DNA from: a bacterium
GTDB lineage: Bacteria > UBA8248 > JACPRG01 > G963555815
Length of the DNA: 64,000 nucleotides
Direction of reading: 5' to 3'
Assembly (NCBI GenBank): GCA_965218795.1
Contig: OZ244653.1
Location: 2,880,001-2,944,000 of the forward strand
Below the pieces are notes generated by a model. The model made no database searches, was not told the origin of the DNA, and was given only the letters and a program-made list of their open reading frames with translations. The position numbers were made by a program, and so were the translations under genes. Every line of letters begins with the position of its first letter. Within the stretch, counting starts at the first letter, position 1. Below are positions 11,292 to 40,608 of this stretch, one piece after another.

Positions 11292-11344
11292 TCCCCTTGC
11301 GAGCGGGTTTTCAGGAATAGTCGCAAAAAACATTAGGTATCCCC

Positions 11345-22587: not shown

Positions 22588-23503
22588 TCAATGAACCGAA
22601 TACACCTTCACTCAGCCGCCTAACTGTCCAAGATAGTGGGACCACCTCAATGTGCTTAGATACTACCTCACTGTTCGCCGCTTCTAATTCCAAGGCGGGA
22701 CTGCACCAGTTGGCGGTGCCATCTATGTCAGTATCAACCGAAAGATCATTTAGAGATGCAGCCACGCGGAGGTTTACTCTGACAGAGTCCAAATGATCCG
22801 ACGCCAACGATTCCGACAATTCATTGGTGATGGACAACAGCCGCTTGATATGTTCTCGCAGTGGTATCATGCCCTCCGATGCAACAGAATTTGATCTCCA
22901 AATTGGATCCAAAGCGCGGTATGGATTGTTTACGAAACCTTGAGGCTGGTCGAGTGGCTCAGTATTCGGTTTCGCCTTCACAGATTTGCAAGTGCGGCTT
23001 TCTTGCATTCGGTTCCTCTTGTAGATAAACCGAAACGTCAAAGTCACGACGTTTCATTCACCCGTTGTAGGTGCGATGGCAAGGATGCCTAGCCTTACGT
23101 CCGGGCCTTCGACGACGCCTGAAGCACCGCGCGGTGCCCCAGACTCACATTGGAAACCTCTCGCCTCCCGGCCCGGTAACAGCGTCGTCGTGCATGACAC
23201 CGACGGCGATGATGCTCAGCACATCCGCTGGAGACAAAAGCGTGCGGTGTGTTTTTTCATCTCGCGCTTGCCGCTCCACTCCTTCGTTTCCTTCGGGGGC
23301 TTCAACTGAGGTGGTCCTGATTTTCATCGCTTCAGAATTGGTATGGTGTAATTATGGTGAAAAATGGTGGTTACGTCAGGGAGTCGCCAAGACGCTCCGC
23401 CCTAAGTCCAAGAAACATAGCGTATGCCTTTGGGTGACGCTTGACGAAACCGAGTCGCGGAGTTGACGTGGCTCGGCGAAGAGCTTGATATTTCGGCGGC
23501 TTG

Positions 23504-23527: not shown

Positions 23528-23662
23528 GTGTCGGGATTTGTGGCGCGGCATCGTGACAGCATCGCAGGCGATCTTCCTCTTCGAGCACCCGAATTGGAAG
23601 TGGTGGGAGACAAGAAAGTGGGGGGATCGCGTGGCAAATGTCCCGCAGTACAGGATGACGCC

Positions 23663-25808
23663 GTGACCGTGACGGAAAACCGTTTGCTACGGTTTCTGGA
23701 GGGTGTCCGGCCACTGTATATACTGCCGGTCGATCCGATCGCCCAAGAAGTGCTGATTCCAGGATTTAAGGCGGCGGGCAAAGTGGACTGCATGGTCGGA
23801 TTCTTCTCAAGCGAGGTGTTGGCTTCGCTTGCGCCCGGTCTGGCAACCTACATCGAAGGTTCGGAGAGCAGTTTCCGGCTGATCATAAGCCCCATTCTCC
23901 GTGCCGAGGACCAGGCCGCGATCGAGGACGGGCTGAGGTCTGCGGAAGAAGTTGCCGATAGGATTCTGGAAGATCTGACGGTTACAGAAGACCTGCTTCA
24001 ACGCCACACGTTGAAGTGCCTCTCCTGGCTCCTTCGAGAAGGTCGCATTGAGATCAAAGTCGCCTTGATGAAGGATGCGCTTTTTCACCCGAAAGTCTGG
24101 TTATTTGAAAACGATGGCGATGTCGTTGCAGCGCACGGGTCGAGCAATATGACCTATGCTGGTATCCGCAAAAACATTGAACAGATCGCGATATCGAGGT
24201 CATGGCAGGATCCGAACCAGCGCTACATCACCGACAAGCTCGGCTATGAGTTCGGTCGCTTGTGGGAGAACAAGGACGATAGCTGCATCGTCATTGCGAT
24301 GCCGGAGGCCGTCAGGCAGCGCCTGTTGTGCACCTACAGTTCTGAAACGCCGCCGACGGAAGATGACCTGAGGGCTCTGTACGGCCGCGCAACCGGGTTT
24401 GCCGAAGAGCCGGAATCTTACGAACCCGCACCTGTGCCGACGACGGGCTTTGCGATCCCAGACTGGTTGCGATACGAAGACGGTCCATTCGAACATCAGG
24501 GCAAAGCAGTAATCGCCTGGTGCGAAGCCGGGTATCGCGGCGTGCTGGAAATGGCGACCGGCTCGGGGAAAACCATCACCTCGATGATTGGCGCACACCG
24601 CCTCTACGACGGACACAAGCCGCTCCTGATCGTGGTCGCCGCCCCCTATGTGCCGCTGATCGAACAATGGTGCGATGAAATCGTCCCGTTCGGGCTGAAA
24701 CCGGTCAACCTCACCACGGCGCGTGGCGCTGCCAAACGCGCGATCGAACTGCAAAAACTGAAACGACGATTTCGCACCGGCCTGTCCGATGTCGAAGCGG
24801 TCGTGGTCAGTCACGACACCCTATGCACGCCGGAATTCCTCGACGTTATCGAGGGGTTCGATTGCGCAAGGCTGCTGATCGCGGATGAAGCGCATAATCT
24901 GGGCCGCGCGTCATTCATAGAAGACCCACCGGAGTTTTTCGAGCACCGGATCGGCCTGTCAGCCACGCCGATCCGCCAGTATGACGAGGAAGGAACGGAA
25001 GCCCTTTTCGGCTTTTTCGGTCCCGTGGTCTGCCGGTTCACGCTCGAACAAGCGATCGGGCGCTGCCTCGTCGATTACGCCTACTACCTCCACCCTCCAC
25101 CCTGTCTATCTCACCGAAAGCGAGATGGACGAATGGTTCGACCTGACGGGGAAGATCAAGCAAAACCTCTGGCGCGACAAGGGCTGCAAGCCGGACGATT
25201 ATCTCGCGAAGTTGTTGCGCAACCGGAGGGCGTTGCTGGAAACCGCATCAGACAAGGTGTCCATGTTGAGGACTCTTCTCGACGAAGAGGATACCGGCAG
25301 CCTGCGCCACACACTAGTCTACACCTCGGACAAGGGACCGGACCAGCTCGACAACGTCAACCGGCTGCTGCGTGACAGGAACATCCTGTTTCATCAGCTC
25401 ACGGCGGAAGAGACAGCCAGCCGCGACCAGACGAAGCGCATCATCAGGTCGTTCCAGGACGGCGAAATCCAGGTCCTCACGGCCAAGCGCGTGCTCGACG
25501 AAGGCGTGAACATTCCGCAAATTTGCAAGGCGTTCATCCTCGCGAGCACCACGGTCGAACGGCAATGGGTGCAGCGGCGCGGACGCCTGCTGCGAACTTG
25601 CAGAGCGATCGGCAAGACGCACAGTGTCATTCATGACCTGCTGGCCTTGCCGCCGGGAATGGAAGAAGGGCTTGATCCCGATGCGCGCGGCCTCGTGCGT
25701 TCGGAGCTGCGCCGTGCGCAGGAATTCGCGCGGCTCGCAAGAAATGCGGGCCGACCGGACGGGCCGCTGGCGATGATCGATAAAATGGTTGATGCAGCGT
25801 ACCTGTAG
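23663..25808 (+). pseudogene. PLD(HKD)-nuclease + SF2 DEAH helicase (Dnd-associated restriction-type), frameshifted
   Basis: FHPKVWLF..GSSN, ATGSGKT, DEAH, SATP; LDEGVNIP and QRRGRLLR lie in a second frame; 7-bp duplication ctccacc at 25088-25101; start approximate. Confidence 0.88.
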
Positions 25809-25824
25809 CGCTGGGGGAAGTGAA

Positions 25825-26070
25825 ATGCCGCTAAACGACAAAAAGATAATCTCGATCATCCTTGAGCAATGCGTCGGAATAGACGAACGGTGTGACGGCT
25901 ATAGGGAGGAGATTATCGAAGTGATTTCGGAGATTCTCGAATACGAGCGGGGCCATCGTGTTTCGGCGACGAATATCCAGAAAAAGATAAATGACAAATG
26001 CAATGCTGCCGGGCGGTTCCTTGAGGAACAACGCGGTCAGGATACGGGCACGGAGGAACTGGACTCATGA
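25825..26070 (+). CDS. Small protein associated with CxC/DndD-like ATPase
   Basis: 81 aa MPLNDKKIISIILEQ...; ATGA overlap with the ATPase. Confidence 0.75.
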   Translation: MPLNDKKIISIILEQCVGIDERCDGYREEIIEVISEILEYERGHRVSATNIQKKINDKCNAAGRFLEEQRGQDTGTEELDS

Positions 26071-28208: not shown

Positions 28209-28218
28209 GAGACAACCG

Positions 28219-28680
28219 ATGGCCGACCGTTATTTCAATCCATTTCAAGCGATCGACATCAACGTGCCGGTCGAATTCCACGAGGTTTTCACCCGGTACT
28301 GCCAAAGGAGCGCCGATGCGGTCATCGACCAGAGTCCGTTTCCCCGCATGGTCGATCTCTGGTTCTTGTCCGTCTGCGTTGCGGCGCGGCTCGGGTTGGA
28401 ACCTGCTGATATTGGCAAATACGAAACGCGGAAGATCATAGACGGCTCGATCTTCGGCAGCGATCCGTGGCGTGTTCACACCCTCATGTTGATCTCGATC
28501 GGCAAGACGGGCGACGAGCAAATCGTATCGGAACCGCGAAAGATGATGGCGCTTGCCAATGGCCTCGCTGTTGCGGGACTGCCGAAAGTTATCGAAATGC
28601 TCAAGGACGGAGATGCAGAACCAATCTGGAACCTGTCGGATGCGGTTGACTCTCTCTTGAGGAAAGAGAAAGCGGCATAG
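28219..28680 (+). CDS. 153-aa ATPase partner (DndE/Dnd-associated position)
   Basis: AGGAG RBS directly after the ATPase; PFPRMVDLWFLSVCVA...ANGLAVAGL; assignment mostly positional. Confidence 0.6.
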   Translation: MADRYFNPFQAIDINVPVEFHEVFTRYCQRSADAVIDQSPFPRMVDLWFLSVCVAARLGLEPADIGKYETRKIIDGSIFGSDPWRVHTLMLISIGKTGDEQIVSEPRKMMALANGLAVAGLPKVIEMLKDGDAEPIWNLSDAVDSLLRKEKAA

Positions 28681-28794
28681 GACAGGATGCATGACAATGT
28701 TGGTCGCGGAGTACAGACGAAGGATAGTCGAAGTCGGTAGAGATGTTGTCCCACCAATGTTCGGCAAGTCTGACAACAAACGGAGATAAGTGGC

Positions 28795-31167
28795 TTGTTC
28801 AAGATTTGCGCTCGGACGGTACTGGAACTTGGAGCTGAGCTTATCAGCTCCGATGTCATTGCGTTTTATGAGTTGATCAAAAACACGTTTGACGCAGGAT
28901 CGCCTAAAGGTGCGGAAATCTATTTCGAAGTCGTTCTAAGACGAAACGACTACCTGAAATTCCGCCAGAGGGCGATTGACAGGTCGGCGGAAATTGACCG
29001 GCTGAAGGCGGATGTCGAGAATGCGCTCGACGCGTCTGCACCGGAAGACTCCCTGGATTTCTTCCGGGCGGCGGTAGATGAGGCCGAAGACATAGAAGCG
29101 TTTGTCGAGGCTCTTGATGCGGCATACGCCGCCAAGAACCGGATCGTCGTGTCCGACGAGGGAACGGGGATGTCGAAACAGGATTTGATCGACAACTACC
29201 TCGTAATCGGTACTGCGTCGCGAAGGCGCGCGATAGATGCTGCGCTTGCAGAACATGCCGCTGGAAAACATCGCGCGCCCTATCTCGGCGAAAAGGGGAT
29301 CGGACGGCTTTCGGCCATGCGGCTGGGCGACATGCTGACGGTCGAAACGGCTGAAAAGAAGGACAAGCTCCTAAACCTGCTCAAAATTGACTGGTCGGCA
29401 TTTAGCGACCTCGATGTAATGCTTGATGAGATTGATGTCGTACCCGAGCGTGGCGGGACGAAGCCGGAGCCGGACTGGAGTGGCACACGTCTTATCATCG
29501 GCGCTCTCGGGGCCGACTGGACCTATGACCGCGTTAAATACCTTGGCGAGCATGACTTTGTGCGGTTGACCGATCCGTTCGCCGACGCCAAGCGGAGACC
29601 CCGTATCGCGGTATTCTGGAACGGTACGCGCGTTCCCGTAGCCCATATGGATCACCACCTCTTGGCGCATGCACACGCATCGGTGAAAGGACGTTTTGTT
29701 TACGGTGACTCCGGTCCGGCCCTTGAATGCAGCCTCAGAGCTTTCGACCTCGGTTTCGAGCACCCGCATGAAGTTGAGAAACGGGTGTTTGCTCTGCCCG
29801 ATCTCGAAGGGTCGATCACCGGAACATCAGGCGAAGTTCCGCTTTCAGCACTCGACGATTTGGGCGAGTTCGAATTCGAGGCGTATTGGTTTAACCGGCA
29901 ACGCCTGGGTGCCATTGACAGCATTGGAAACCGAAACCAGGTGCGGGAACTGCAACGGCGCTGGTCCGGAATCCTTCTATTCCGAGATGGATTCCGGGTG
30001 TTGCCGTACGGAGAGGACGACGACGACTGGCTGGCTCTGGACCGGCGCGCACTGGGAAGCACGGGATATCTTCTCAACAAGGCGCAATTCGTAGGTCGCG
30101 TGACGATATCGCGGCTCGGCAATCCGTTACTCATTGACCAGACAAACCGTGAAGGCTTGCATGTTTGCCCCGAACAGCAGGCATTCATTGGTTTACTTCA
30201 GCTTGCAATTCAGTATCACCTTCGGGACTTCCTAAAGGATGTCCAGCGGCGTCACAAAGACCAGCCTCTTGACATGACAGAGGCCAAGACGGACGTGTCT
30301 AACCTCGAAAAAAGGGCGAACACCGCGCTCCGGAAGATAAAACGCATTGCTCCGGAGTCGGCGGATACCGTCGAGGAATTGCAGCACACCTTCTTTGAGA
30401 TTAAGGAATTCTTTGACCGTGCACAGAACCGGATCGCCGAAGTCGAAAGCGAGAATCGCCAGATGATGCAGATGGCGGGCGTCGGGCTGCTTGTCGAGGT
30501 CGTGGCACATGAGCTGGCGCGATCGACAGAGAACGCGCTCGCGGCTCTTGAGGCCCTACGCGGCAGGGACGTCCCGGACCAGATAGGCGGGCTGCTGAAC
30601 TCACTTCGGTCCGAGATGACATCAGTAAGCAAGCGTCTTCGCGTTCTTGATCCGCTTAGCGTGTCGGGTCGTCAACGTAAGGGAACCTTCAATCTGGGCA
30701 CCCTGATCGATGACATCCTGAGCGGGCACGAGCTACAATTTGACCGTCACAATGTGAAGCTGAAGGTCACGATGCCTGAGCACGCTGTTCGTATACGTGC
30801 CGTCAAAGGCATGATTGTGCAGATAATCGAGAACCTGGTATCGAACTCCCTTTACTGGCTCGATCTCCGCAGGCAGCACGAACCCGGCTTCCAGCCGCGC
30901 ATCACGATTGCGATGGAAGACGATCCCCTGACGATTACCTACAAAGATAACGGCCGGGGAATCGCGAAGGAAAACCGCGAGAACGTCTTCCGTGCATTCT
31001 TTTCCCTGAAGGAGAAATCCAAGCGCCGGGGGCTCGGCCTATACATCGCCCGCGAGTGCGCCGAATACCACGGCGGAAGCCTAACGCTGGATGAGCATGT
31101 CAACCGCGCGACGGGACGTCTCCATCGTTTCATTCTGCAATTGCCCGATGAGGTCGTTGTCTCATGA
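28795..31167 (+). CDS. GHKL/MORC-type ATPase fused to histidine kinase
   Basis: ELIKNTFDA, DEGTGMS, GEKGIGRLS, FRDGFRVLPYG, DQTNREG; then VAHEL, ENLVSNS, DNGRGI, GLGLYIARE. Confidence 0.88.
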   Translation: MFKICARTVLELGAELISSDVIAFYELIKNTFDAGSPKGAEIYFEVVLRRNDYLKFRQRAIDRSAEIDRLKADVENALDASAPEDSLDFFRAAVDEAEDIEAFVEALDAAYAAKNRIVVSDEGTGMSKQDLIDNYLVIGTASRRRAIDAALAEHAAGKHRAPYLGEKGIGRLSAMRLGDMLTVETAEKKDKLLNLLKIDWSAFSDLDVMLDEIDVVPERGGTKPEPDWSGTRLIIGALGADWTYDRVKYLGEHDFVRLTDPFADAKRRPRIAVFWNGTRVPVAHMDHHLLAHAHASVKGRFVYGDSGPALECSLRAFDLGFEHPHEVEKRVFALPDLEGSITGTSGEVPLSALDDLGEFEFEAYWFNRQRLGAIDSIGNRNQVRELQRRWSGILLFRDGFRVLPYGEDDDDWLALDRRALGSTGYLLNKAQFVGRVTISRLGNPLLIDQTNREGLHVCPEQQAFIGLLQLAIQYHLRDFLKDVQRRHKDQPLDMTEAKTDVSNLEKRANTALRKIKRIAPESADTVEELQHTFFEIKEFFDRAQNRIAEVESENRQMMQMAGVGLLVEVVAHELARSTENALAALEALRGRDVPDQIGGLLNSLRSEMTSVSKRLRVLDPLSVSGRQRKGTFNLGTLIDDILSGHELQFDRHNVKLKVTMPEHAVRIRAVKGMIVQIIENLVSNSLYWLDLRRQHEPGFQPRITIAMEDDPLTITYKDNGRGIAKENRENVFRAFFSLKEKSKRRGLGLYIARECAEYHGGSLTLDEHVNRATGRLHRFILQLPDEVVVS

Positions 31168-33065: not shown

Positions 33066-33414
33066 ATGGAGGCGGACGATCTTTTGGCAGAATCTGTATC
33101 CGTACGGTCAGTTGGCGGTCAAGACACGCTGTACAAACCGCCAGTTTTTTCGTGCGCAGATCTAACTCATGAACCCTTTCGCCTGTTAGGGGAACTAGCT
33201 CGCCTCGATGGCGACGATCAAGTGCTTCTTTGGGGGGGTTGTTAGAACCTCGGGCACACAGTTCGACGGCGATCGGACCGACGTACATGACGTGTTATCA
33301 CTGATTTTGGGTGCGGTGTTACGAGCATTCGGTCTCAGCTCTGTGTGGCTAGTAGATGAGCGGCACGGCTTTGTTCCGGGAGAAGTCGGGGCGCGGCAAA
33401 TAAGGTGGATTTAC

Positions 33415-34254
33415 CTATTTGTGACAGGCAAGACAAACCTTTGCTTTACCGTAAAGATCATCAATGTCCAGAGGCTTGCTATCCGGCCTTAACGGGTTGG
33501 GCGGTCCCTTCGACCGCATGCGGGCGAGCCGTTGTTCATAGTCCTGTCTGATCTGCTCGATCCGTTCCGGTTTCTCCAACTCTTCCAATGACTCGCCCTC
33601 GCTCCACGTAAACGGCGAGCCTTGATCGACGGCATCCTTTTCATAAGCCTTGGCTTCCTCGAAGGCGTCAGGGTGCCGCTCTTTGAGCCGCACCCATTCG
33701 ATCTTCTGCTGGAAGAAACAGAAGGTGCAGCCGCTACGGGTGCGCCAAGCATAGTATGTCGGCAACCCCAAGCCCGCGCTTTCCAGAATCTCCAGCACCT
33801 CTGCTTTATCGACGCCGGCTTCTTTGAAAGGAAGTCGCACGATGAGGTTGTCGTGCTTGGAAGAATACCCCTCGCGGTATTCCTCGTCCGCTCTGATGGC
33901 AACGTAGCTGTACACCTTGCCCCCGTTTTCGAGCGAGGTCCTGAGCCACTGCTCGAAGGGCCGCAGCTTCAGTTGCCGTGTGCACCAGCGCGTCTGCGGG
34001 GACGGTAGAAAATTGTTGTACTGTTTGAGCCAGAAATCGAAATCCCGGTCAGGGTTCAGGCGCAGTATCGGTTGCCCGAGAAAACCTTCCAGCCGCCCGA
34101 GATATTCGTAGACCTCGGGCAGTTCCTTGCCCGTGTCCGTAAAGAAATATTCGATATCCAGTTCGGGGTGATGTTGCCGCATATAGACGGCGAGGGCCGC
34201 GCTGTCGCGCCCGCCGGAAAGACCGAGTACGTGTTTCACAGGATCGGTCGTCAT
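33415..34254 (-). CDS. PAPS-reductase-family PP-loop protein (DndC/SspD-like)
   Basis: SGGRDS, DTGKELPE, RWCTRQLK, RSGCTFCFFQ, CLACHK. Confidence 0.92.
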   Translation of the reverse strand: MTTDPVKHVLGLSGGRDSAALAVYMRQHHPELDIEYFFTDTGKELPEVYEYLGRLEGFLGQPILRLNPDRDFDFWLKQYNNFLPSPQTRWCTRQLKLRPFEQWLRTSLENGGKVYSYVAIRADEEYREGYSSKHDNLIVRLPFKEAGVDKAEVLEILESAGLGLPTYYAWRTRSGCTFCFFQQKIEWVRLKERHPDAFEEAKAYEKDAVDQGSPFTWSEGESLEELEKPERIEQIRQDYEQRLARMRSKGPPNPLRPDSKPLDIDDLYGKAKVCLACHK

Positions 34255-37200
34255 GAAACGGCTCTTCCTTTCTCATTGTGCTGCTGCTTCGGTTTTTGCA
34301 TGTACCGTGTGCTGATTTTCGCCAGCGCCGCCAGAATGATGCTGCGACGGCTGGTGTCGGCCTCTTCCAGTGCGGCCGAGACACGCTCGATGAGCGCGTT
34401 CACGGCTGCATGGTCAGAGTCTGCGATATCGAATTCCTCCAGTATCGGCGCCGGTCGACCGTCCATGCCAATAACGACAGCCATCGCTTGGCGTTTCTCG
34501 GGTCGGCCCTTGACGCGCGCGTACGTCTCGGCGCGGAGGAATTTCTGCGCCATGTCGGCAAGCTCAATCGCCGCTTTGTCGAGATCGGGATCGACCCAAT
34601 CACGCGGCGGTTTGTTCGCGGCGAGACTGGCGATGCCCTCGAAACTCTCGTCGCTGCCGTCGAACTGCGATAGCCTGCCGACGAAGGCATCGAGCCGGAA
34701 GTCCCCGGCGAGCTGCCGGATGTTCTCGGCCCGGTCGCGCAATTCGGCCAGCGATTGCGGGGAGACGTTCGGGACTTGCAACTCCAAAAGCATGATATCG
34801 CGTAAGCGGTGGAGCATCGAGGGATAGGCCTGAACCAATTCCTCCAAACCGTCGCGGACGCTTCCAACGATCCGGCGCAGGTCCTCGTCATTGGCAAGGG
34901 AAACGTCTTCGCCGAGCGTTCCTGGAATGTCGTCGAACAGGAACTGGTTCGGATCGTGCGCGCGTTTGAAGAGATCGCGAATGTTCACGGCGTTCGTGGA
35001 AAGCCGCATCGTCCGCGTGGTCCATTGGGGGAGCTGATCGTAGATCGCCACAAGGCCGCGCCCGACATCGATGGGCTCCAAATGAGCAAGATCGTTGGCT
35101 TTGTCGAGATTGCGAACGACCTCCGCCATGTCTGACAACAGGCGGCGCGCGATATCGGTCAGGTCCATCCAGCGCAACTGGATGAAGGCCGCGTCCTTGG
35201 CCAGATAGCCGACATCCACATCATCGAATCGGGCCCTGAAAATACCGTCCCGATAGACCGCAAGCTTGTCTCGCCCTGACAGCACGAACGCGACGGCAAG
35301 TATCGGCATCAGCCCGTGCCTGACACCGAACGGCGGCTTGCGCCACAGGTCGAACAGTTCGGAGACGGCAACCGTGCGATTGGCGTGCTTCTTCACATGT
35401 GCGAGCGCCTCGTCCCACATGGGTGCCAGGCGGTGAGGATCAGCGCTGCTCTTCTTCGGGGAAACGAACCGCCATCCCTTGCCCTCTTGCGTGTAAAGTC
35501 CCGTCGCTTCCAATACGGATGCGAACAAGCCGCCTTCGGCCGGAAAACCCTTGATGCCAAGACGCGGCTCTCCCTCGTTCAGGACCATGCGCCGCAACAG
35601 GCTGTTTTGCGCCGCGATGGCGTTGCTTGACGGCTTCTGGCGATTCAGCAACTCGTTGTGCAGGCACGGCGATTGTTCGAAGCGGCGGTCGGCCAGCTCG
35701 GAAGCGATGCTGTTCAAATCGGCCTGCCGCAAGCATTTGGGCTGGTGGTTCTTGCGGAACCACAATGCATTGTCGAATGCCTTGTGCAGTTCCGCCTCAA
35801 GGAGAGCCTGCAAGGCCGCGAGACGGGCGGAGACTTCCCGCCGTGCGACGGGATCGCCGGCAAGTTCCGGGTGATCGTTGCTTACGTTATCGAGCGCAGA
35901 CAGCTCACGCGCCAGCGGCACGACAGCCCAGGACCGCTGCGAAATCCCGACGACCACATCCCATGCATCGCCATAGCGTGCCGCCTTTCGGCAAAGGTTC
36001 TCGGCGTATTCTTCGCTTTCTTCCTCGGTCGGGACCGCTAGCAGGAACTGGCCTATTGCGCCGTTCTTCGGCGCAAGGTTGGCGGCGAATTCGACGAGGC
36101 CGCTGACGGGAACGATGTTCACGTCGAACCATCGCAGCGCGCCTGTTTCATGGTAGTGGCGTTTAGCGAGAATCGGCTGAAGCCCGGCGAGGGATTTGAG
36201 TTCCTTGAAATCGACCTCGTCGATATCGTCGAGCGCGGCGCGGACCGCTAGATCGATATCGAAATCGCTTCCGGCGAAAATGGCGCGGGCGTCGAGGAAC
36301 TTCTTGAAGATTGTAAACGACCAGTCGTCGAGCTGCGACAGCGCTTTCTCAAGGGCCTTGGGGGATATTTCGGGGAAACAGGTTCGCAGCAGATCCGCTT
36401 TCGCAACGAGCCCCGAGCGCTCTTTGAACAGGTCAATGACAGAGATGGTCTTGAGCAGATTGATGTGAAGCGCGTCGCCGCCGATGGATTCGCAGCGTTC
36501 AAGCGCTTCTGCCGTCAAGGCCCATCGGTGTCCGTCGGGTGAGGCCAGGATGGATGGTTCCAGATTGGTGCGCAGATAGTCCCAAAGGCGATCCGGCCCG
36601 TACAGCTCGCCGTCCCCGGCGTGATTGAGAAAATCCTGAAAGCCGTGCGGTTCGGATGAGTTCAGAAAACCGAAGATGCTCCGCTGGTTTTGACCGAAGC
36701 GCCGCCGCGATATCGGCCCAAGCAAACAAGCCACGACGGGATGCAGCGGCCAGCACGCTTCCAACGTGGTAGCTAGCCGCACGGCGTCGCCGCCACGTTC
36801 CCGGAGCGCGAAGGCGGCGACCTTGGAACCTAGCCCACCGGGTTTTTTCGGAAGATGATCGCTCTCGATGGCGCGGGAGATCAGGTCGATCTGCTCTTCG
36901 CCAGCGGCATCGACGATGAGATCGATAAACCGTCCCTGGACTTTCGCCCACTCGTCACGCATCTCATGCGAGAGCCGATGCGCGTATTCCTCGAATGCCT
37001 GGTGCAGCACGCCCACCACGAGAAAACGGCCGTTGCTCCGCGATGCAACCTCGGCAAGCTGTTGGAGGATGTAGATGTCGGAGCCGTCCTGCGCGGCGGC
37101 TTCGAGAAACTTGCCCATCTCGTCGATGAACAGGATCAGTCCGCCGTGCGTCTTCGGCTTGGACGCGGCCGCCTCCATCAGGGCGGCGATCAAATTGCTC

Positions 37201-37640
37201 TCGGTCCAGCCGCCGCGCGGCACGCGCGATACAAGTCCTCCCCTTTTGACGGCTTCACCGATGACACTGACGGGATTGTCTCGCCTTCCGACAACGGGAA
37301 CGACGCGCCATCCCTTCGCGCCTGTCGGCAACGCGTTCCAGATCGCTTTCGTCAGCTTCTGCCCGAAGACCTTGGCCGCGTCTTTTTGCAATCCCGCATC
37401 GCCGTTCAGCAAGGCGCTCAACGCAACCACAAGGCTTGACTTGCCGCTGCCGTAGGGGCCGGTCCACGTAAACGCGCCTTGTCCCGTTTCGGAGACGTGA
37501 CGCGCCATCATGATCAGAACATCGGCCGACGATTGCGGACAGACAAATCCTTCGAGTGCGGTGGCATCGCCGAGATCGGCGTCGATACGGACCGATCTCA
37601 GAAAGCGCCGGGCTATGCGGACTCGTTCGTTGAGTGCCAT
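34251..37640 (-). CDS. Large P-loop ATPase, BrxC/SspC-like
   Basis: FLRSVRI, GPYGSGKSS, FIDEMGKFLE, EWAKVQGRF, WPLHP, FGQNQRSIF. Confidence 0.85.
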   Translation of the reverse strand: MALNERVRIARRFLRSVRIDADLGDATALEGFVCPQSSADVLIMMARHVSETGQGAFTWTGPYGSGKSSLVVALSALLNGDAGLQKDAAKVFGQKLTKAIWNALPTGAKGWRVVPVVGRRDNPVSVIGEAVKRGGLVSRVPRGGWTESNLIAALMEAAASKPKTHGGLILFIDEMGKFLEAAAQDGSDIYILQQLAEVASRSNGRFLVVGVLHQAFEEYAHRLSHEMRDEWAKVQGRFIDLIVDAAGEEQIDLISRAIESDHLPKKPGGLGSKVAAFALRERGGDAVRLATTLEACWPLHPVVACLLGPISRRRFGQNQRSIFGFLNSSEPHGFQDFLNHAGDGELYGPDRLWDYLRTNLEPSILASPDGHRWALTAEALERCESIGGDALHINLLKTISVIDLFKERSGLVAKADLLRTCFPEISPKALEKALSQLDDWSFTIFKKFLDARAIFAGSDFDIDLAVRAALDDIDEVDFKELKSLAGLQPILAKRHYHETGALRWFDVNIVPVSGLVEFAANLAPKNGAIGQFLLAVPTEEESEEYAENLCRKAARYGDAWDVVVGISQRSWAVVPLARELSALDNVSNDHPELAGDPVARREVSARLAALQALLEAELHKAFDNALWFRKNHQPKCLRQADLNSIASELADRRFEQSPCLHNELLNRQKPSSNAIAAQNSLLRRMVLNEGEPRLGIKGFPAEGGLFASVLEATGLYTQEGKGWRFVSPKKSSADPHRLAPMWDEALAHVKKHANRTVAVSELFDLWRKPPFGVRHGLMPILAVAFVLSGRDKLAVYRDGIFRARFDDVDVGYLAKDAAFIQLRWMDLTDIARRLLSDMAEVVRNLDKANDLAHLEPIDVGRGLVAIYDQLPQWTTRTMRLSTNAVNIRDLFKRAHDPNQFLFDDIPGTLGEDVSLANDEDLRRIVGSVRDGLEELVQAYPSMLHRLRDIMLLELQVPNVSPQSLAELRDRAENIRQLAGDFRLDAFVGRLSQFDGSDESFEGIASLAANKPPRDWVDPDLDKAAIELADMAQKFLRAETYARVKGRPEKRQAMAVVIGMDGRPAPILEEFDIADSDHAAVNALIERVSAALEEADTSRRSIILAALAKISTRYMQKPKQQHNEKGRAVS

Positions 37641-38596
37641 CAGGCAGCCTCTTTACCGGCACGCTCGCCGTAATCACCTGTCACCCAGGAAAGCGCCGTG
37701 TCCTCGCTGATATCGATACTGCGCACGACTTGCTTCAGACCGGCGGTCTCGGACCATCTGAGCGCACCGTCTGTCACATCGTCGAGCGTGGCGAGGCGGT
37801 CCGCCACATCATTTTCGTCGAAGAGGAACACACGCCCCGGGCCACCGGGCGCGTGGGCGATAGCCTCGAATGACAGTGTGGCTGCATCGGAATAGCGCGA
37901 CCAGAAATCTCTCAGCGCATAGATGAACACGCCGTCGCCCAATGTGGTCTTCGGGCCGCGCACAAAACGGAATCCGTCCTTTTTGCCGATAGCCTTGATG
38001 AGCCCCAACTCTGTCAGGGGCGACTCAAGCGCGTCGTCATGTCCAACCTTCCCGGACGGTTGGCGTGCGACGTAGGTGCGAATAAAACATGCGACATCGT
38101 TCTTGATGGTTGTATCGGCAGCTCGCGGCCAAGATCGAGCCTTCGCGAGTCGGCCGAGCTTCTTTACGAGATGGTCCCGCTCAAAGGTAATGGCGGGAAA
38201 GTGGCTGAATGCCCAGAACCAGGTTGTTTTCTCTTCGCGGGCCGCCAATTGCCAATGGATCAGCCATAGCGTGGCGGGGTGCTCCATATACGGATCGAGG
38301 CCGTTGGGCGCGAACAGAAGGCGTCCAAACTCCGTCGTCTGAACCGAGTTCGCCCCGGTCTCCTCGATCACGCGGGCAGCCTTCGCCCAATGGCGAATGG
38401 ACGCGACCATATTCTTGCCGACGCCAAATCGCGCGATGGCGTCTTCGCCCCAACAGGCAGCCCTGTTATCGGCTTCGGCCTCGGTTTCTGCGGCGCGGTC
38501 GAACGCCTTCTTCAGCCACCCGTAGCGTAGCGGGAAGGTCTCGTGGCCTGAAAGCTGCGGGTTATAGCCGTCTTGAAATAATGGTCCACGCGCCAT
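37640..38596 (-). CDS. DUF4007 family protein (SspB-like)
   Basis: SGHETFPLRYGWLKKA, FGVGKNMVASIRHW, DPYMEHPATLWLIHW, SPLTELGLI, ETAGLKQ. Confidence 0.92.
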   Translation of the reverse strand: MARGPLFQDGYNPQLSGHETFPLRYGWLKKAFDRAAETEAEADNRAACWGEDAIARFGVGKNMVASIRHWAKAARVIEETGANSVQTTEFGRLLFAPNGLDPYMEHPATLWLIHWQLAAREEKTTWFWAFSHFPAITFERDHLVKKLGRLAKARSWPRAADTTIKNDVACFIRTYVARQPSGKVGHDDALESPLTELGLIKAIGKKDGFRFVRGPKTTLGDGVFIYALRDFWSRYSDAATLSFEAIAHAPGGPGRVFLFDENDVADRLATLDDVTDGALRWSETAGLKQVVRSIDISEDTALSWVTGDYGERAGKEAA

Positions 38597-38752
38597 GCCT
38601 TCTCCGGCTCCTGGATGCTATCTCCAGTTCGCCTGTAGCCTACGTGCTGTGTATGCTATGGTCAACAGAAATTGGAGGAGTCCTTTAGCAACGAGCCACC
38701 TCGGAAAATCGGCCGTGAGCAAAGCGTTTCAGCCTTGGATCATTGAGACACA

Positions 38753-39955
38753 ATGAAAATGCGAAAGACCATCTATCTGGATCATCAGGCGACGACGCCG
38801 GTTGATGCGCATGTTTTGGCCGAAATGGCCCCATACTTTACTGATTCGTTCGGCAATCCGCATTCATCGGATCACTGTCTCGGGTGGGAGTCTTCGCGCG
38901 CCGTGGAAGACGCCGCTGCACGTGTGGCGAGACTGATCGGCGCGGATGCTGATGAGATCACCTTCACGTCAGGAGCCACTGAATCAAACAATCTGGCGCT
39001 GCTCGGACTAGGCCGGCGGGCAGTTGGGGGCAAGCGCCGTCGCATTCTGATCAGCGCGATCGAGCACAAAAGCATACTCGCTGTGGGGAGAGTACTGCAA
39101 AAGCAGTTCGGTTTCGCAGTCGAACAGATACCTGTCGATGGCGAGGGGTTCGTAGAGTTTTCAGCTCTGGAAGAAGCGCTGGACAGCGATGTTCTCGCTG
39201 TATCGATCATGGCGGTCAACAACGAGATTGGAACAATTCAAAACATAGAAAATATTTCGGAAATCATCAGGAGCAATGGAGCTGTCTTTCATTGCGATGC
39301 TGCGCAGGCGCCAACTGCGATGAACATGGGTTGTTTTGCGCAATACGCAGATATGATCAGCCTTTCGTCGCACAAGATGTACGGTCCCAAAGGGCTCGGG
39401 GTCATCTATATCTCGCGCGAATTCCACGGCAAAATCGAGCCGGTGATCTATGGTGGTGGGCAGCAGAACGGGCTGCGCTCGGGTACGGTCCCCGTTCCGC
39501 TCTGCGTCGGAATGGGTGCTGCAGCGGATAGGCTCATGGTCGACGATTTCGAAGACAGGTGCGAACAATTGCGCCATCGGCGCGATACATTCATCGAGAA
39601 ACTAGGGAAGCTGTCTTGGCCAATAGCCGTGAACGGTCCCCACGGGCAAGCTCGACATCCCGGCAACGCAAATATCCAATTCACCGGGTTTTCGGCGCAT
39701 GACATTCTTGGCTCTTTACAGCCGCATCTTGCTGCATCGACCGGTTCCGCCTGCACCTCGGGCATCCCGGAACCTTCGCATGTTCTCAAGGCCATCGGCC
39801 TGAGGGGCGACGAGGCCGAATCGTCCGTGCGTTTCAGTCTCGGTTTCGGCACATATGACGATGATGTTGATGAGGCCGTGAGCCTGATCGAGAACGCATT
39901 GGACAGGCTTTCGAAGGCCGATCGGGTTCGCCTTGCTGAATCACGATTTGGCTGA
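38753..39955 (+). CDS. Cysteine desulfurase (DndA/SspA/IscS-like)
   Basis: YLDHQATTP, GNPHS, FTSGATESNN, HCDAAQ, SSHKMYGPKG, GSACTS. Confidence 0.95.
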   Translation: MKMRKTIYLDHQATTPVDAHVLAEMAPYFTDSFGNPHSSDHCLGWESSRAVEDAAARVARLIGADADEITFTSGATESNNLALLGLGRRAVGGKRRRILISAIEHKSILAVGRVLQKQFGFAVEQIPVDGEGFVEFSALEEALDSDVLAVSIMAVNNEIGTIQNIENISEIIRSNGAVFHCDAAQAPTAMNMGCFAQYADMISLSSHKMYGPKGLGVIYISREFHGKIEPVIYGGGQQNGLRSGTVPVPLCVGMGAAADRLMVDDFEDRCEQLRHRRDTFIEKLGKLSWPIAVNGPHGQARHPGNANIQFTGFSAHDILGSLQPHLAASTGSACTSGIPEPSHVLKAIGLRGDEAESSVRFSLGFGTYDDDVDEAVSLIENALDRLSKADRVRLAESRFG

Positions 39956-40086
39956 ACGCCCTCGTCATTGATGGCCAACGCTCTGATCCGGTCTAGAGGC
40001 TTGCTTGTGGTTGCGGGGGTACGCAATAGCCGAGACTGACGTTCACTCGCTATCACGAGTTGAACGAGACAAGGAGGTACGAGCGC

Positions 40087-40608
40087 ATGACATCGAGCAA
40101 GACCCTGTATCTGGCGAACCCCTATGGGTTTTCCGCGCAGCAGCGCGGAGGGCCGCTGGCGGCGTTGGTGGCCGCCCTGGAAGCGATGGGCGCGGAGGTC
40201 TGGGAGCCGTTCGCCCGCAACAACCAGATCGACCGGACGAGCCCCGGCTGGGCCTACCGGATCGGGCAGGCCGACCTTGGCGACGTGCGCGACGCCGACG
40301 GGCTGTTCGCGGTGGTCAACGGCTGTCCTCCGGACGAGGGAGTGATGGTGGAGCTTGGCATGGCGATCGCGTGGGGGAAACCGGTGTTTCTGTTCCGGGA
40401 CGATTTTCGCCGCTGTACCGACAGCGAGGCCTATCCGCTGAACCTGATGGTGTTCACCGGCCTGCCGGAGACGGGTTGGGAGGCCTACTGGTATAGCTCG
40501 GTTGAGGAGATCGCCCGTCCGGACAAGGCGCTCGCGCGGTGGCTGAAGGGCAGCGTGGCGGCTGTCGAAACCGTCCCGATGTCCGCTACGGGCCGAACCG
40601 GCGAATGA
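40087..40608 (+). CDS. Nucleoside 2-deoxyribosyltransferase family protein
   Basis: LYLANPYGFS, DLGDVRDAD, PPDEGVMVELGMAIAWGKPV, NLM; AAGGAGG RBS. Confidence 0.88.
   Translation: MTSSKTLYLANPYGFSAQQRGGPLAALVAALEAMGAEVWEPFARNNQIDRTSPGWAYRIGQADLGDVRDADGLFAVVNGCPPDEGVMVELGMAIAWGKPVFLFRDDFRRCTDSEAYPLNLMVFTGLPETGWEAYWYSSVEEIARPDKALARWLKGSVAAVETVPMSATGRTGE

What the first reader, a model, noticed from the sequence alone, without database searches (positions are those of the whole stretch)
23663..39955. Hybrid DNA sulfur-modification defence locus: Ssp/BREX4-like core plus CxC/DndD-like arm
Seen: one operon (DUF4007, BrxC/SspC-like ATPase, PAPS reductase) with a divergent cysteine desulfurase converges on a second operon (HKD-SF2 helicase, 81-aa protein, SMC ATPase ending CACxxxxxCxxC, 153-aa protein, kinase, receiver). 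Several genes are coupled by overlapping stop/start codons. Known: Dnd uses desulfurase + DndC + DndD + DndE; Ssp uses desulfurase + DUF4007 + ATPase + PAPS reductase; CxC-clade ABC ATPase systems have been predicted bioinformatically as thiolation systems. Inference: a 10-gene phosphorothioation-type system matching neither canonical DndABCDE-FGH nor SspABCD-E. No dndB, sspE or pglZ is recognisable, and the PAPS reductase is a short standalone protein. I am not aware of experimental characterisation.
Basis: partly seen in the sequence, partly recalled or inferred. Interest (0 to 1): 0.85.

Follow-up and report, generated by a model that had tools for sequence, protein, structure and literature searches.

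The report
DNA-sulfur defence island with kinase relay
This is a mobile gene cassette that tags the host's DNA backbone with sulfur and pairs that tag with a known anti-virus module plus an uncharacterised kinase-to-receiver signalling pair; the same cassette recurs in many bacterial phyla, but here two of its DNA-cutting genes are broken.

Summary
The ten genes are real and at the stated coordinates. The minus-strand operon plus the divergent desulfurase is a canonical SspABCD phosphorothioate (PT) modification module, with full-length PADLOC hits. It is not BREX type 4. The first four plus-strand genes are PbeABCD, the CxC-ABC ATPase system, which has been characterised with Dnd in archaea. 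The "kinase" is a paraMORC-type histidine kinase. The "receiver" (REC633) belongs to no Pfam family. Its model has a REC fold with a conserved D-D-D-S-K set, then a MazF/CcdB-like domain.

The layout recurs. 12 of 27 loci found through REC633 share the whole arrangement, across several phyla. In 401 Binatia-class genomes, all 11 PbeC-like matches and all 5 full-length REC633 matches lie beside sspD. On rhizobial plasmids the kinase-receiver pair sits beside ssp genes with SspFGH.

In this genome pbeA carries a 7-bp duplication frameshift. An eleventh gene, an Mrr-like nuclease, is a 112-codon stub.

Verdict: a new variant of a known kind. I found the Ssp+Pbe pairing and the Ssp-linked kinase-receiver pair described only in passing remarks.

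The parts
23528..25808 (+). pbeA pseudogene: HKD (PLD) nuclease fused to an SF2 helicase. Broken by a 7-bp tandem duplication at 25088-25101 (+1 frame). The true start is probably near 23630-23645.
   Evidence: PADLOC PbeA 1.4e-118 for the N part and 8e-66 for the C part. Pfam PLDc_2, ResIII, DEAD and Helicase_C. TIGR04095 dnd_restrict_1. Frame switch mapped at 25093-25096. Duplication seen against three intact homologues. Contigs of 4 runs span the site with 0 gaps.
25825..26070 (+). pbeB: 81-aa small protein. Its stop overlaps the pbeC start.
   Evidence: No family hit. Conserved 81-aa gene at the same position in 13 of the 27 other loci (cluster; sequences). Assigned by position and size, following PMC10853773 and PMC6459918.
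26067..28208 (+). pbeC: CxC-clade coiled-coil ABC ATPase. Walker A at residues 37-44, CICGE hook at 363-367, C-terminal CxCxH..CxxC cluster.
   Evidence: PADLOC PbeC 2.1e-52, DndD 5.6e-32. Pfam AAA_23. Motifs conserved in 17 of 17.
28219..28680 (+). pbeD: 153-aa partner of PbeC. PMC10853773 calls PbeD the clade-2 DndE cognate.
   Evidence: No Pfam, PADLOC or PDB sequence hit. ESM Atlas nearest clusters score 0.97-0.93 and carry PF27807 DNA_S_mod_dnd_assoc_4 (a lead only). Same size as the 152-aa archaeal PbeD (PMC6459918). Conserved next to pbeC.
28795..31167 (+). HK790: soluble histidine kinase. N-terminal MORC/Hsp90-like GHKL ATPase, a long helical linker, DHp with H572, and a C-terminal kinase ATPase domain.
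   Evidence: Pfam HATPase_c_3 5.9e-15 (75-201), HATPase_c 2.8e-20 (674-785). HEF_HK 8.1e-4, 20.3 bits, below the cut-off of 24.1. PDB kinases match 528-786. GHKL motifs, H-box, N, G1 and G2 boxes conserved over 23 sequences.
31164..33065 (+). REC633: receiver domain (about residues 12-228, with a roughly 85-residue helical insert), a helical linker, a MazF/CcdB-like barrel (about 349-477, with invariant C379 and near-invariant D380), and a last ~150-residue domain of unidentified fold. Start overlaps the HK790 stop.
   Evidence: No Pfam, PADLOC, NCBIfam or PDB sequence hit. AF2 model pLDDT 84. REC fold at Z 11.8, rmsd 2.5 A, 117 residues. MazF/CcdB fold at Z 9.1, rmsd 3.3 A, 98 of 105 residues. 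Foldseek MazF prob 1.00, best E 8.8e-4. D20, D21, D141, S178 and K206 invariant in 46 members of 20-39% identity.
33066..33402 (+). Remnant of an eleventh gene ('X490', ~490 aa with a C-terminal Mrr-type nuclease). Only codons 1-112 remain, with a frameshift near 33236. About 1160 bp are deleted.
   Evidence: Intact gene directly after REC633 in L002, L003, L005, L012, L018 and L021. Pfam Mrr_cat 2.8e-5. Remnant mapped by tblastn and blastn.
33415..34254 (-). sspD: PAPS-reductase-family ATP pyrophosphatase.
   Evidence: PADLOC SspD 3.9e-138, profile positions 1-277 of 277. BrxP only 5.3e-11 and DndC 2.3e-6. Pfam PAPS_reduct.
34251..37640 (-). sspC: large ATPase.
   Evidence: PADLOC SspC E=0, 1349 bits, profile 1-1044 of 1045. 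Best BrxC 1.2e-104.
37640..38596 (-). sspB: DUF4007 protein.
   Evidence: PADLOC SspB 1.3e-107. Pfam DUF4007 2.3e-87.
38753..39955 (+). sspA: class-V PLP cysteine desulfurase, divergent from sspBCD.
   Evidence: PADLOC SspA 1.6e-124, DndA 2.1e-121. Pfam Aminotran_5 9.8e-77. The same divergent position is seen in the 12 full-layout loci.

Best explanation
The locus is a horizontally mobile, composite phosphorothioate (PT) defence cassette with three modules. It sits in a low-GC island inside a conjugative element.

1. SspABCD writes the PT mark on host DNA. SspA mobilises sulfur from cysteine. SspD, SspB and SspC install it. This is inferred from family membership.

2. PbeABCD (HKD-helicase, small protein, CxC-ABC ATPase, DndE-like partner) is the interference arm that uses the mark to spare self DNA. 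This was shown for Dnd-linked PbeABCD in a haloarchaeon. For Ssp it is inferred here from tight genomic linkage.

3. HK790 and REC633 form a cytoplasmic phosphorelay that belongs to Ssp systems in general.
- The kinase's N-terminal MORC-like ATPase is the likely sensor, of DNA or PT status or of an infection cue.
- H572 would phosphorylate D141 of REC633.
- That would switch REC633's MazF/CcdB-like output domain, acting as a toxic or growth-arresting effector or as a checkpoint.
- In some relatives an Mrr-type nuclease is co-transcribed.
- The domains and their linkage to ssp rest on tool results. Every step of this mechanism is inferred.

In this genome both nuclease genes are broken (pbeA, and the Mrr-like gene). 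The cassette therefore probably still modifies DNA but restricts weakly or not at all.

Confidence by part: composite Ssp+Pbe cassette about 0.85. Kinase-receiver pair as a true Ssp accessory about 0.75. Effector role of the MazF-like domain about 0.35.
For: Module identity:
- Full-length PADLOC hits to SspA, SspB, SspC and SspD, and hits to PbeA and PbeC.
- CxC hook conserved in 17 of 17 homologues.

Linkage, ascertained through REC633 (27 genome loci):
- HK790 lies directly upstream in 27 of 27, fragments included.
- sspD is present in 24 of 27, pbeC in 17 of 27.
- The whole convergent layout is present in 12 of 27.
- Protein identities are 42-93%, in MAGs labelled Latescibacterota, Terriglobia, Binatia, Thermodesulfobacteriota and alpha-, beta- and gamma-proteobacteria.

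Linkage, ascertained through sspD (401 Binatia-class genomes):
- sspD occurs in 28 genomes, at 30 places.
- All 5 full-length REC633 matches lie under 1 kb from sspD. None lies in the 373 genomes without sspD.
- All 11 genomes with a PbeC-like match have it within 5 kb of sspD. 4 of them also have REC633 and 7 do not.

Plasmids (5 of the 11 matching records inspected):
- REC633 relatives of 23-40% identity have a kinase gene immediately upstream in all 5.
- sspD and sspC lie within 12 kb in 4 of the 5. The fifth shows only FtsK/SpoIIIE-type neighbours.
- In pAtK224b the pair sits beside PADLOC-verified SspF, SspG and SspH.

Receiver:
- REC fold at Z 11.8, rmsd 2.5 A, 117 residues.
- D20, D21, D141, S178 and K206 are invariant across 46 members of 20-39% identity.

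Kinase: H572 and the GHKL, N, G1 and G2 motifs are conserved in 23 sequences.

Output domain:
- MazF/CcdB/Kid chains take 10 of the top 12 VIA rows, best Z 9.1.
- Every listed Foldseek row is a MazF-family chain.

Mobility:
- GC is 53-60% across 20-40 kb, against 65-73% in the flanks.
- IS630, IS3, a TrwC relaxase and a TrwB coupling protein flank the locus.
- 0 of the 50 other genomes of the host's phylum have REC633.

Decay:
- 7-bp duplication in pbeA.
- Truncated X490.
Against: - No experiment links Pbe to Ssp-type PT. PMC10853773 argues that CxC/Pbe systems also occur without PT genes, and doubts that they are dedicated PT-dependent restriction modules.
- Most Ssp loci do without the kinase-receiver pair. 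In the Binatia sample 15 of 20 close-clade Ssp loci lack it, and 6 of 20 have none of the partner modules I searched for.
- REC633 has no sequence match to any REC family or to PemK/MazF. That holds for Pfam at E up to 10, for 46 relatives, and for the PDB profile search.
- The MazF-like Z of 9.1 is only a little above the 7-8 that unmatched models typically reach, and the C-terminal-only model is mediocre (pLDDT 70.5).
- MazF has no counterpart of the invariant Cys379 (my recall), so the chemistry may differ.
- The HEF_HK hit is below Pfam's cut-off.
- With pbeA and X490 broken, the locus may not defend at all in this host.
Confidence: 0.7

Rival explanations
1. The kinase-receiver pair is a regulator rather than an effector. 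It would tune expression or activity of the ssp genes or of the restriction genes. One example is holding restriction back until DNA is marked, the job DndB does for Dnd.
For: - Two papers speculate this for histidine kinase genes seen next to Ssp in Acinetobacter. PMC7464106 (passage read) reports 211 strains and suggests 'regulate the expression of SspE'. [quoted passage not shown]
- The pair accompanies different restriction partners: Pbe, SspFGH, X490 and c11. That fits a general controller.
- Ssp systems have no DndB-like regulator (PMC10853773, passage read).
Against: - No DNA-binding output domain was found in REC633. There were no Pfam hits, and no helix-turn-helix structures appeared among the listed structure matches.
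- The last ~150 residues were barely tested by the structure searches, so a DNA-binding domain there is not excluded.
- The output domain that was recognised resembles toxins.
- Most close Ssp loci (15 of 20) work without the pair.
Confidence: 0.25
2. The three modules are independent systems that merely share a defence island and have no functional coupling.
For: - Defence genes cluster in islands (general knowledge).
- The slot between pbeD and sspD is variable. It holds SspE in L041, HK-REC in some loci, X490, c17 or c118 in others, or nothing.
- PMC10853773 stresses decoupling of PT modification from restriction modules.
Against: - The linkage is near-absolute in the samples. 5 of 5 full-length REC633 matches and 11 of 11 PbeC-like matches lie beside sspD in 401 genomes, and there were no REC633 matches in the 373 genomes without sspD.
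- REC633 relatives of only 23-25% identity still sit beside ssp genes on plasmids.
- Gene order and overlapping stop/start codons are kept across phyla.
Confidence: 0.1
3. In this particular genome the cassette is a decaying remnant. It would be at most an orphan PT 'epigenetic' modification system, with no defence function left.
For: - pbeA is frameshifted by a 7-bp duplication, which is present in contigs of all four runs laid.
- The Mrr-like gene is reduced to 112 codons.
- IS elements sit next to the locus.
- Other loci show similar decay: L005, L019, L021, L023, L025 and L027.
- PMC8092258 found no sspE or sspFGH beside most sspBCD clusters in its survey (reported as 2,211 of 2,678, 83.9%), and raises orphan PT modification as one possibility.
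Against: - The other nine genes are full-length with their key motifs intact.
- In the archaeal system, deleting pbeA still left low-level protection, whereas pbeB, pbeC and pbeD were essential (PMC6459918, passage read).
- If the kinase-receiver arm is an effector, it is intact.
Confidence: 0.35

Closest known systems
[quoted passage not shown]
   Same: All four proteins match the PADLOC Ssp models over their full length. sspB-sspC-sspD form one operon with overlapping codons.
   Different: No sspE or sspFGH partner was found here. sspA is divergent from the operon. The partners are instead PbeABCD and a kinase-receiver pair. The PT motif of this clade is unknown.
DndCDEA-PbeABCD of Haloterrigena jeotgali (PMC6459918), equated with the CxC-ABC ATPase system by PMC10853773
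   Same: Same four-gene order and sizes: HKD+SF2 helicase, small protein, CxC ATPase, and a ~152-aa partner. PADLOC PbeA and PbeC hits. CxC hook conserved.
   Different: It is linked to Ssp rather than Dnd modification genes. It is bacterial. PbeC carries an extra conserved C-terminal Cys/His cluster. pbeA is a pseudogene in this genome. No paper I searched reports Pbe beside Ssp.
HEF_HK / Response_reg_2 two-component-like pairs next to restriction-modification systems (Bellieny-Rabelo 2021, PMC8011034; bioinformatic only)
   Same: The kinase architecture is the same: HATPase_c_3 + DHp + HATPase_c. It is soluble, sits immediately next to a divergent receiver protein, and lies beside a DNA-modification system.
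   Different: HEF_HK scores below its cut-off. REC633 and 46 relatives do not match Response_reg_2 at all. The partner here is PT rather than methylation. That paper does not mention phosphorothioation, Dnd or PAPS reductase.
Detocs, a defensive two-component system of kinase, buffer receiver and receiver-effector (recalled from memory; no paper fetched)
   Same: The idea of a phosphorelay that switches an effector domain fused to a receiver in phage defence.
   Different: No PADLOC hit other than weak REase_II for the kinase, and none for the receiver. There is no buffer receiver gene. The output is a MazF/CcdB-like domain rather than a nucleosidase. The pair is tied to a DNA-modification system.
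MazF/Kid/CcdB toxins of toxin-antitoxin systems
   Same: Predicted fold of REC633 residues ~349-477: Z 9.1, rmsd 3.3 A, 98 of 105 residues; Foldseek prob 1.00.
   Different: No sequence similarity (9-15% identity in the structural alignments, no Pfam hit). It is embedded in a 633-aa protein between a receiver and another domain. It has an invariant Cys379 with near-invariant Asp380. No antitoxin gene is present.

Membership tests
SspABCD PT modification module | SspA: class-V PLP cysteine desulfurase | tested here: met
   PADLOC SspA 1.6e-124, profile 1-373 of 374. Pfam Aminotran_5 9.8e-77.
SspABCD PT modification module | SspB: DUF4007 protein | tested here: met
   PADLOC SspB 1.3e-107. Pfam DUF4007 2.3e-87.
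SspABCD PT modification module | SspC: ~1050-aa ATPase | tested here: met
   PADLOC SspC E=0, 1349 bits, profile 1-1044 of 1045.
SspABCD PT modification module | SspD: standalone PAPS-reductase-family protein | tested here: met
   PADLOC SspD 3.9e-138, profile 1-277 of 277.
SspABCD PT modification module | Single-strand PT modification of host DNA | not testable with these tools
   Needs LC-MS/MS, iodine cleavage or SMRT/nanopore data.
SspABCD-SspE system | SspE (DUF262 + DUF1524) next to sspBCD | tested here: not met
   PADLOC SspE models PDLC02783 and PDLC02789 find nothing in the whole genome (two of ten models tried). tblastn with the verified SspE of L041 finds nothing in the window.
SspABCD-SspFGH system | SspF, SspG and SspH next to sspBCD | tested here: not met
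   No such genes in the locus. The SspH model hits only one FtsK-like C-terminal domain elsewhere in the genome, and the same model rings in 8 control genomes. SspF and SspG models were not run on the genome.
PbeABCD / CxC-ABC ATPase system | PbeA: HKD nuclease fused to an SF2 helicase | tested here: met
   PADLOC PbeA 1.4e-118 and 8e-66. Pfam PLDc_2, ResIII and Helicase_C. The gene is frameshifted here.
PbeABCD / CxC-ABC ATPase system | PbeB: small protein between pbeA and pbeC | tested here: inconclusive
   A conserved 81-aa gene sits in the right place, but it matches no model.
PbeABCD / CxC-ABC ATPase system | PbeC: coiled-coil ABC ATPase with a CxC motif at the coiled-coil apex | tested here: met
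   PADLOC PbeC 2.1e-52. CICGE at 363-367 conserved in 17 of 17.
PbeABCD / CxC-ABC ATPase system | PbeD: clade-2 DndE (double RHH) partner | tested here: inconclusive
   No Pfam, PADLOC or PDB hit. ESM Atlas lead to PF27807 dnd_assoc_4.
PbeABCD / CxC-ABC ATPase system | Adjacent DndCDEA modification genes, as in the characterised archaeal system | tested here: not met
   None of the locus's genes takes a Dnd model as its best match. DndC, DndD and DndA models score below SspD, PbeC and SspA, and there is no DndE match. The neighbours are sspABCD.
BREX type 4 | PglZ and BrxL, with a long BrxP-type PAPS reductase | tested here: not met
   None of the locus's proteins matches PglZ or BrxL models. 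SspD matches BrxP only at 5.3e-11, against SspD at 3.9e-138. The ATPase matches SspC at E=0, against BrxC at 1.2e-104.
Two-component phosphorelay (histidine kinase + receiver) | Kinase: DHp histidine plus N, G1 and G2 boxes | tested here: met
   H572 with 'HELAR', and the N, G1 and G2 boxes, conserved in 23 sequences. PDB kinases align to 528-786.
Two-component phosphorelay (histidine kinase + receiver) | Receiver: (beta-alpha)5 fold with acidic pair, acceptor Asp, Ser/Thr and Lys | tested here: met
   Predicted fold at Z 11.8, rmsd 2.5 A, 117 residues against KdpE; nearly all of the 50 listed rows are receiver or CheY-like domains. D20, D21, D141, S178 and K206 invariant in 46 divergent members. 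This rests on a predicted model.
Two-component phosphorelay (histidine kinase + receiver) | Phosphotransfer from kinase to receiver | not testable with these tools
   Needs an in vitro phosphotransfer assay.
HEF_HK / Response_reg_2 pair (PMC8011034) | Kinase with HATPase_c_3 + HEF_HK + HATPase_c | tested here: inconclusive
   Both ATPase domains score above their cut-offs. HEF_HK scores 20.3 bits against a cut-off of 24.1.
HEF_HK / Response_reg_2 pair (PMC8011034) | Partner carries Response_reg_2 (PF19192) | tested here: not met
   No Pfam hit for REC633 at E up to 10. 0 of 46 relatives hit it at E up to 0.01.
MazF/PemK/CcdB toxin superfamily | SH3-like barrel fold of the toxin | tested here: met
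   Z 9.1, rmsd 3.3 A, 98 of 105 residues. 10 of the top 12 VIA rows and all listed Foldseek rows belong to this superfamily. Based on a predicted model, and the margin over noise is modest.
MazF/PemK/CcdB toxin superfamily | Sequence membership and catalytic residues | tested here: not met
   No PemK_toxin or CcdB Pfam hit in REC633 or in 46 relatives. Catalytic residues were not compared.

The most novel reading that the evidence does not exclude
HK790-REC633 is a phosphorelay dedicated to Ssp systems that reads the state of the DNA-backbone sulfur mark (or an attack on it) and answers by switching on a MazF/CcdB-like toxin domain. It would work as a two-component 'alarm' or checkpoint arm of an epigenetic defence. 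It would be shared by Ssp cassettes that otherwise use quite different restriction partners (Pbe, SspFGH, an Mrr-like nuclease). It is possibly the same kind of pair as the unexplained kinase genes beside Ssp in Acinetobacter.
Probability: 0.3. Interest if true: 0.85.

Novelty: new variant of a known kind. Interest (0 to 1): 0.62.

Why it matters
In the survey of PMC8092258 most sspBCD clusters had no sspE or sspFGH beside them, and what completes those systems is an open question in the PT field.

This locus and its relatives point to two candidate answers that can be tested directly:
- PbeABCD serves Ssp as well as Dnd. In the Binatia sample it was the commonest neighbour of this Ssp clade, at 11 of 20 loci.
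- A conserved kinase-receiver pair is a regular, unstudied Ssp accessory. Its receiver family has no Pfam entry and counts 972 clusters at 50% identity.

A phosphorelay tied to a DNA-backbone modification would be a new way of coupling an epigenetic mark to a cellular response.

Two papers note unexplained histidine-kinase genes beside Ssp in Acinetobacter, including the major clinical clone of A. baumannii. Whether those belong to this family was not tested here.

Tried and rejected
- **BREX type 4 reading.** Rejected. Ssp models beat Brx models by a wide margin, and there is no PglZ or BrxL.
- **Sequence searches for REC633.** Pfam at E up to 10, PADLOC, NCBIfam and a PDB profile search found nothing. 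A Pfam scan of 46 relatives gave only two chance-level hits.
- **Sequence searches for PbeD.** Pfam, PADLOC and a PDB profile search found nothing.
- **ESM Atlas on REC633 residues 230-633.** Only unnamed clusters, plus one cluster at 0.87 with Response_reg_2 on 18% of its members. That is a weak lead, and the Pfam scans did not bear it out.
- **Complex prediction.** Kinase DHp-CA dimer with the REC domain gave no verdict (score 0.01, controls not run). It says nothing either way.
- **Last ~150 residues of REC633.** The structure-search lists were filled by the REC and MazF-like domains, so this part was barely tested. No fold can be claimed or excluded.
- **Promoter and terminator scan.** Counts equal to shuffled controls, so uninformative.
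- **The search of earlier findings.** Closed.
- **The look-up of sequencing runs.** Unreachable four times, then answered. No RNA holder was listed, so there is nothing on expression.
- **SspH model on the own genome.** It hit only an FtsK-like domain.
- **Not done.** A census outside the Binatia-class sample and the plasmid collection. A test of whether the Acinetobacter kinase genes belong to this family. Supplementary tables of the PT papers, which may list Pbe or kinase genes beside ssp, were closed and not seen.
- **Literature searches behind 'not described'.** 'PbeABCD', 'SspABCD'+'PbeA', 'SspFGH', 'sspBCD'+'histidine kinase', GHKL/kinase/receiver/conflict systems, 'HEF_HK', 'phosphorothioat'+'paraMORC'.

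Full report
**1. What is in the sequence**

It lies in a 20-kb patch of 53-60% GC, inside a window that is otherwise 65-73% GC.

The patch is bounded by mobile-element genes:
- On one side, an IS630-family transposase, an IS3-family transposase and a RecD2 helicase gene.
- On the other side, a nucleoside 2-deoxyribosyltransferase, a TrwC relaxase and a TrwB coupling protein.

So it sits in an integrated conjugative element. The window is part of a single 5.17-Mb contig. None of the 50 other genomes held for the host's phylum has the 633-aa gene. The cassette was therefore most likely acquired horizontally.

**2. The modification arm is a plain SspABCD**

PADLOC models match all four proteins end to end:
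- SspA, 1.6e-124
- SspB, 1.3e-107 (Pfam DUF4007, 2.3e-87)
- SspC, E=0, 1349 bits, 1044 of 1045 profile positions
- SspD, 3.9e-138, 277 of 277 profile positions

The BREX models score far lower: BrxC 1.2e-104 and BrxP 5.3e-11. No PglZ or BrxL is present, so this is not BREX type 4. The 'short standalone PAPS reductase' is simply what SspD looks like.

No SspE was found. Two of the ten PADLOC SspE models found nothing in the genome. tblastn with a verified SspE found nothing in the window. No SspFGH was found either. The SspH model hits only an FtsK-like domain elsewhere.

**3. The first four genes of the other arm are PbeABCD**

- The split helicase matches PADLOC PbeA at 1.4e-118 and 8e-66, and TIGR04095 'dnd_restrict_1'.
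- The 713-aa ATPase matches PbeC at 2.1e-52, ahead of DndD at 5.6e-32.
- PMC10853773 (passages read) states that PbeABCD is the CxC-ABC ATPase system: PbeA is HKD+SF2 helicase, PbeB is a fast-evolving small protein, PbeC is the CxC ATPase and PbeD is a clade-2 DndE.
- The CxC motif is CICGE at residues 363-367. Both are conserved in 17 of 17 homologues.
- PbeB (81 aa) and PbeD (153 aa) match no model. They are assigned by position, size and conservation. For PbeD there is also an ESM Atlas lead to PF27807 'DNA_S_mod_dnd_assoc_4'.
- PbeABCD was shown to protect a haloarchaeon only together with DndCDEA. pbeB, pbeC and pbeD were essential, and pbeA was partly dispensable (PMC6459918, passages read).

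**4. The kinase and the receiver**

HK790 has the following features:
- An N-terminal HATPase_c_3 domain (5.9e-15), of MORC/Hsp90 type.
- A sub-threshold HEF_HK match (20.3 bits, cut-off 24.1).
- A C-terminal HATPase_c domain (2.8e-20).
- PDB kinases align to residues 528-786.
- The three GHKL motifs of the N-terminal domain, H572 and the N, G1 and G2 boxes are conserved in 23 sequences.

REC633 has no hit in Pfam (E up to 10), PADLOC, NCBIfam or the PDB sequence search. An AlphaFold model built from 68 sequences has pLDDT 84.
- *Residues 12-228* align to receiver domains at Z 11.8, rmsd 2.5 A over 117 residues for KdpE. Nearly all of the 50 listed rows are receiver or CheY-like domains. The topology is (beta-alpha)5 with a long helical insert in place of helix 1.
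- *Conserved residues.* In 46 relatives of only 20-39% identity, 13 columns are invariant. They include D20, D21, D141, S178 and K206, the classic receiver set.
- *Residues ~349-477* match MazF/CcdB/Kid toxins. VIA gives Z 9.1, rmsd 3.3 A, 98 of 105 residues, with 10 of the top 12 rows from this superfamily. Every listed Foldseek row is a MazF-family chain, with best E 8.8e-4, prob 1.00 and target TM about 0.6.
- *Caveat.* This fold call is moderately supported. The C-terminal-only model has pLDDT 70.5, and Z 9 is only a little above typical noise.
- *Other points.* The domain carries an invariant Cys379 and a near-invariant Asp380. The last ~150 residues were barely tested by the structure searches.

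The family is sizeable and unannotated. A profile search of 1.84 billion cluster representatives found 972 at E<=1e-3, 750 at E<=1e-10 and 384 at E<=1e-30.

**5. Do the parts belong together?**

*Sample A: 27 loci found through REC633 in one-genome-per-species contigs, annotated by tblastn and ORF clustering.*
- The kinase lies directly upstream of REC633 in 27 of 27, fragments included.
- sspD is present in 24 of 27. The exceptions are a contig end, a relic and a remnant.
- pbeC is present in 17 of 27.
- The complete convergent layout (pbeABCD, kinase, receiver facing sspDCB, with sspA divergent) is present in 12 of 27. Two of those 12 have disrupted genes.
- Identities run from 42 to 93%, in MAGs labelled as at least seven phyla or classes.
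- Seven loci have the kinase-receiver pair with ssp genes but no Pbe: L007, L010, L011, L013, L016, L023 and L026.

*Sample B: 401 Binatia-class genomes, ascertained by sspD.*
- sspD occurs in 28 genomes, at 30 places.
- REC633 has 5 full-length matches, all within 1 kb of sspD. A sixth, partial match lies 12.5 kb from sspD. There are none in the 373 genomes without sspD.
- PbeC-like matches occur in 11 genomes, all within 5 kb of sspD.

I fetched the other 29 sspD places of this sample (the thirtieth, in G051, was already held as L004). The 20 loci of the window's Ssp clade divide as follows:

| Neighbours of sspD | Loci |
|---|---|
| Pbe + kinase-receiver | 4 |
| Unknown 810-aa gene (c11) + kinase-receiver | 1 |
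| Pbe without kinase-receiver | 7 |
| c11 only | 2 |
| None of the searched partners | 6 |

Among the seven loci with Pbe but no kinase-receiver pair, one has a verified SspE in the slot between pbeD and sspD (9.2e-208).

*Sample C: plasmids.* REC633 relatives of 23-40% identity were found on 11 plasmid records, and I inspected five.
- All five have a ~785-aa kinase gene immediately upstream.
- Four have sspD and sspC within 12 kb.
- The fifth shows only FtsK/SpoIIIE-type neighbours.
- In pAtK224b the three genes between the pair and sspD are SspF (2e-246), SspG (2.9e-219) and SspH (E=0).
- For the other plasmids, the SspFGH reading is my inference from product names and sizes.

Conclusion. 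Pbe is a recurrent partner of Ssp. The kinase-receiver pair is an optional accessory tied to Ssp systems whatever restriction partner they carry.

**6. State of the locus in this genome**

pbeA is broken by a 7-bp tandem duplication at 25088-25101, seen against three intact homologues. Contigs from four public runs of one study span the site with no difference. These runs may be the source sample, and contigs hide rare variants.

In six relatives an extra gene of ~490 aa with a C-terminal Mrr-type nuclease domain (Pfam 2.8e-5) follows REC633 directly. Here only its first 112 codons remain, with a frameshift and a deletion of about 1160 bp.

So both clearly nucleolytic genes are dead, while the modification genes, pbeBCD and the kinase-receiver pair look intact.

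**7. How it most likely works**

- Shown by family membership and by published work on relatives: SspABCD installs PT, and PbeABCD interferes with invaders in a PT-dependent way.
- Inferred from linkage: Pbe uses the Ssp mark here.
- Inferred from domains: the kinase's MORC-like module senses DNA or mark status, H572 phosphorylates D141, and the receiver's MazF/CcdB-like domain is the output.
- I favour an effector or checkpoint role over transcriptional control, because no DNA-binding output domain was found. The last domain of REC633 is unresolved, however, so the regulator reading stays open (0.25).

**8. Comparison with what is in print**

- The closest description of the kinase-receiver pair is the bioinformatic report of HEF_HK/Response_reg_2 pairs next to restriction-modification systems (PMC8011034; abstract, section 7 and passages read). 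It does not mention PT, and its receiver model does not match this family.
- Two papers mention histidine-kinase genes beside Ssp in Acinetobacter in one or two sentences (PMC7464106 and PMC12421847, passages read).
- None of the seven literature searches returned a paper, among those listed or read, that describes Pbe paired with Ssp or characterises the kinase-receiver pair.
- Supplementary tables were closed and may hold such neighbourhoods.
- The comparison with Detocs is from memory only.

**9. Verdict**

The two core modules are known and model-matched. Their pairing, and above all the Ssp-linked phosphorelay with a MazF/CcdB-like output, make this a new variant of a known kind. It is testable with standard phage-defence assays.

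Noticed in passing
L010:5158-7590, L016, L011, L036, L045 (not in the window): An ~810-aa protein family ('c11') with no Pfam or PADLOC hit sits directly next to sspD or directly upstream of the kinase. It occurs in three of the REC633 loci and in two further Binatia Ssp loci (L033 is the same place as L010). It is a candidate further Ssp partner.
   Followed up: partly
L001:11948-14881 and L011: A ~977-aa HNH + STAND NTPase + TPR protein is inserted between REC633 and the ssp genes in two loci.
   Followed up: partly
L047 (G230:C2:2199000-2218999): A distant kinase (36% identity) and REC633-like gene (24% identity) lie about 9 kb from a distant-clade sspD. The pairing seems to extend to other Ssp clades.
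   Followed up: no
L028:10402-12552 and L037: A 716-aa protein of no PADLOC family, with a sigma-70 region-4-like stretch, sits between sspD and a distant pbeA in two Binatia loci.
   Followed up: partly
window 17166-20192: The RecD2-type helicase ORF ends inside the end of an IS630-family transposase gene and lacks the usual C-terminal helicase domain in Pfam. It looks cut by the insertion.
   Followed up: no
window 40060-40608: A nucleoside 2-deoxyribosyltransferase gene lies directly after sspA at the island's edge, where GC rises. Whether it belongs to the island is unknown.
   Followed up: no
window 20739-21389 and 22460-23047 (minus strand): Two ORFs of 216 and 195 aa in the low-GC island, between the IS elements and pbeA, have no Pfam hit.
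   Followed up: partly
window 10001-12000: A second low-GC patch (53%) stands out within otherwise 67-71% GC sequence.
   Followed up: no
window 25104-25166, run X4: Short contigs with loose ends carry a related pbeA sequence without the 7-bp duplication. A relative with an intact gene seems to live in the same community.
   Followed up: no
A1 alignment (REC633 family), columns ~350-650: REC633 is less conserved than its kinase (48-76% against 67-88% identity to the window). Its C-terminal half falls into two sequence types, which hints at a diversifying output domain.
   Followed up: no
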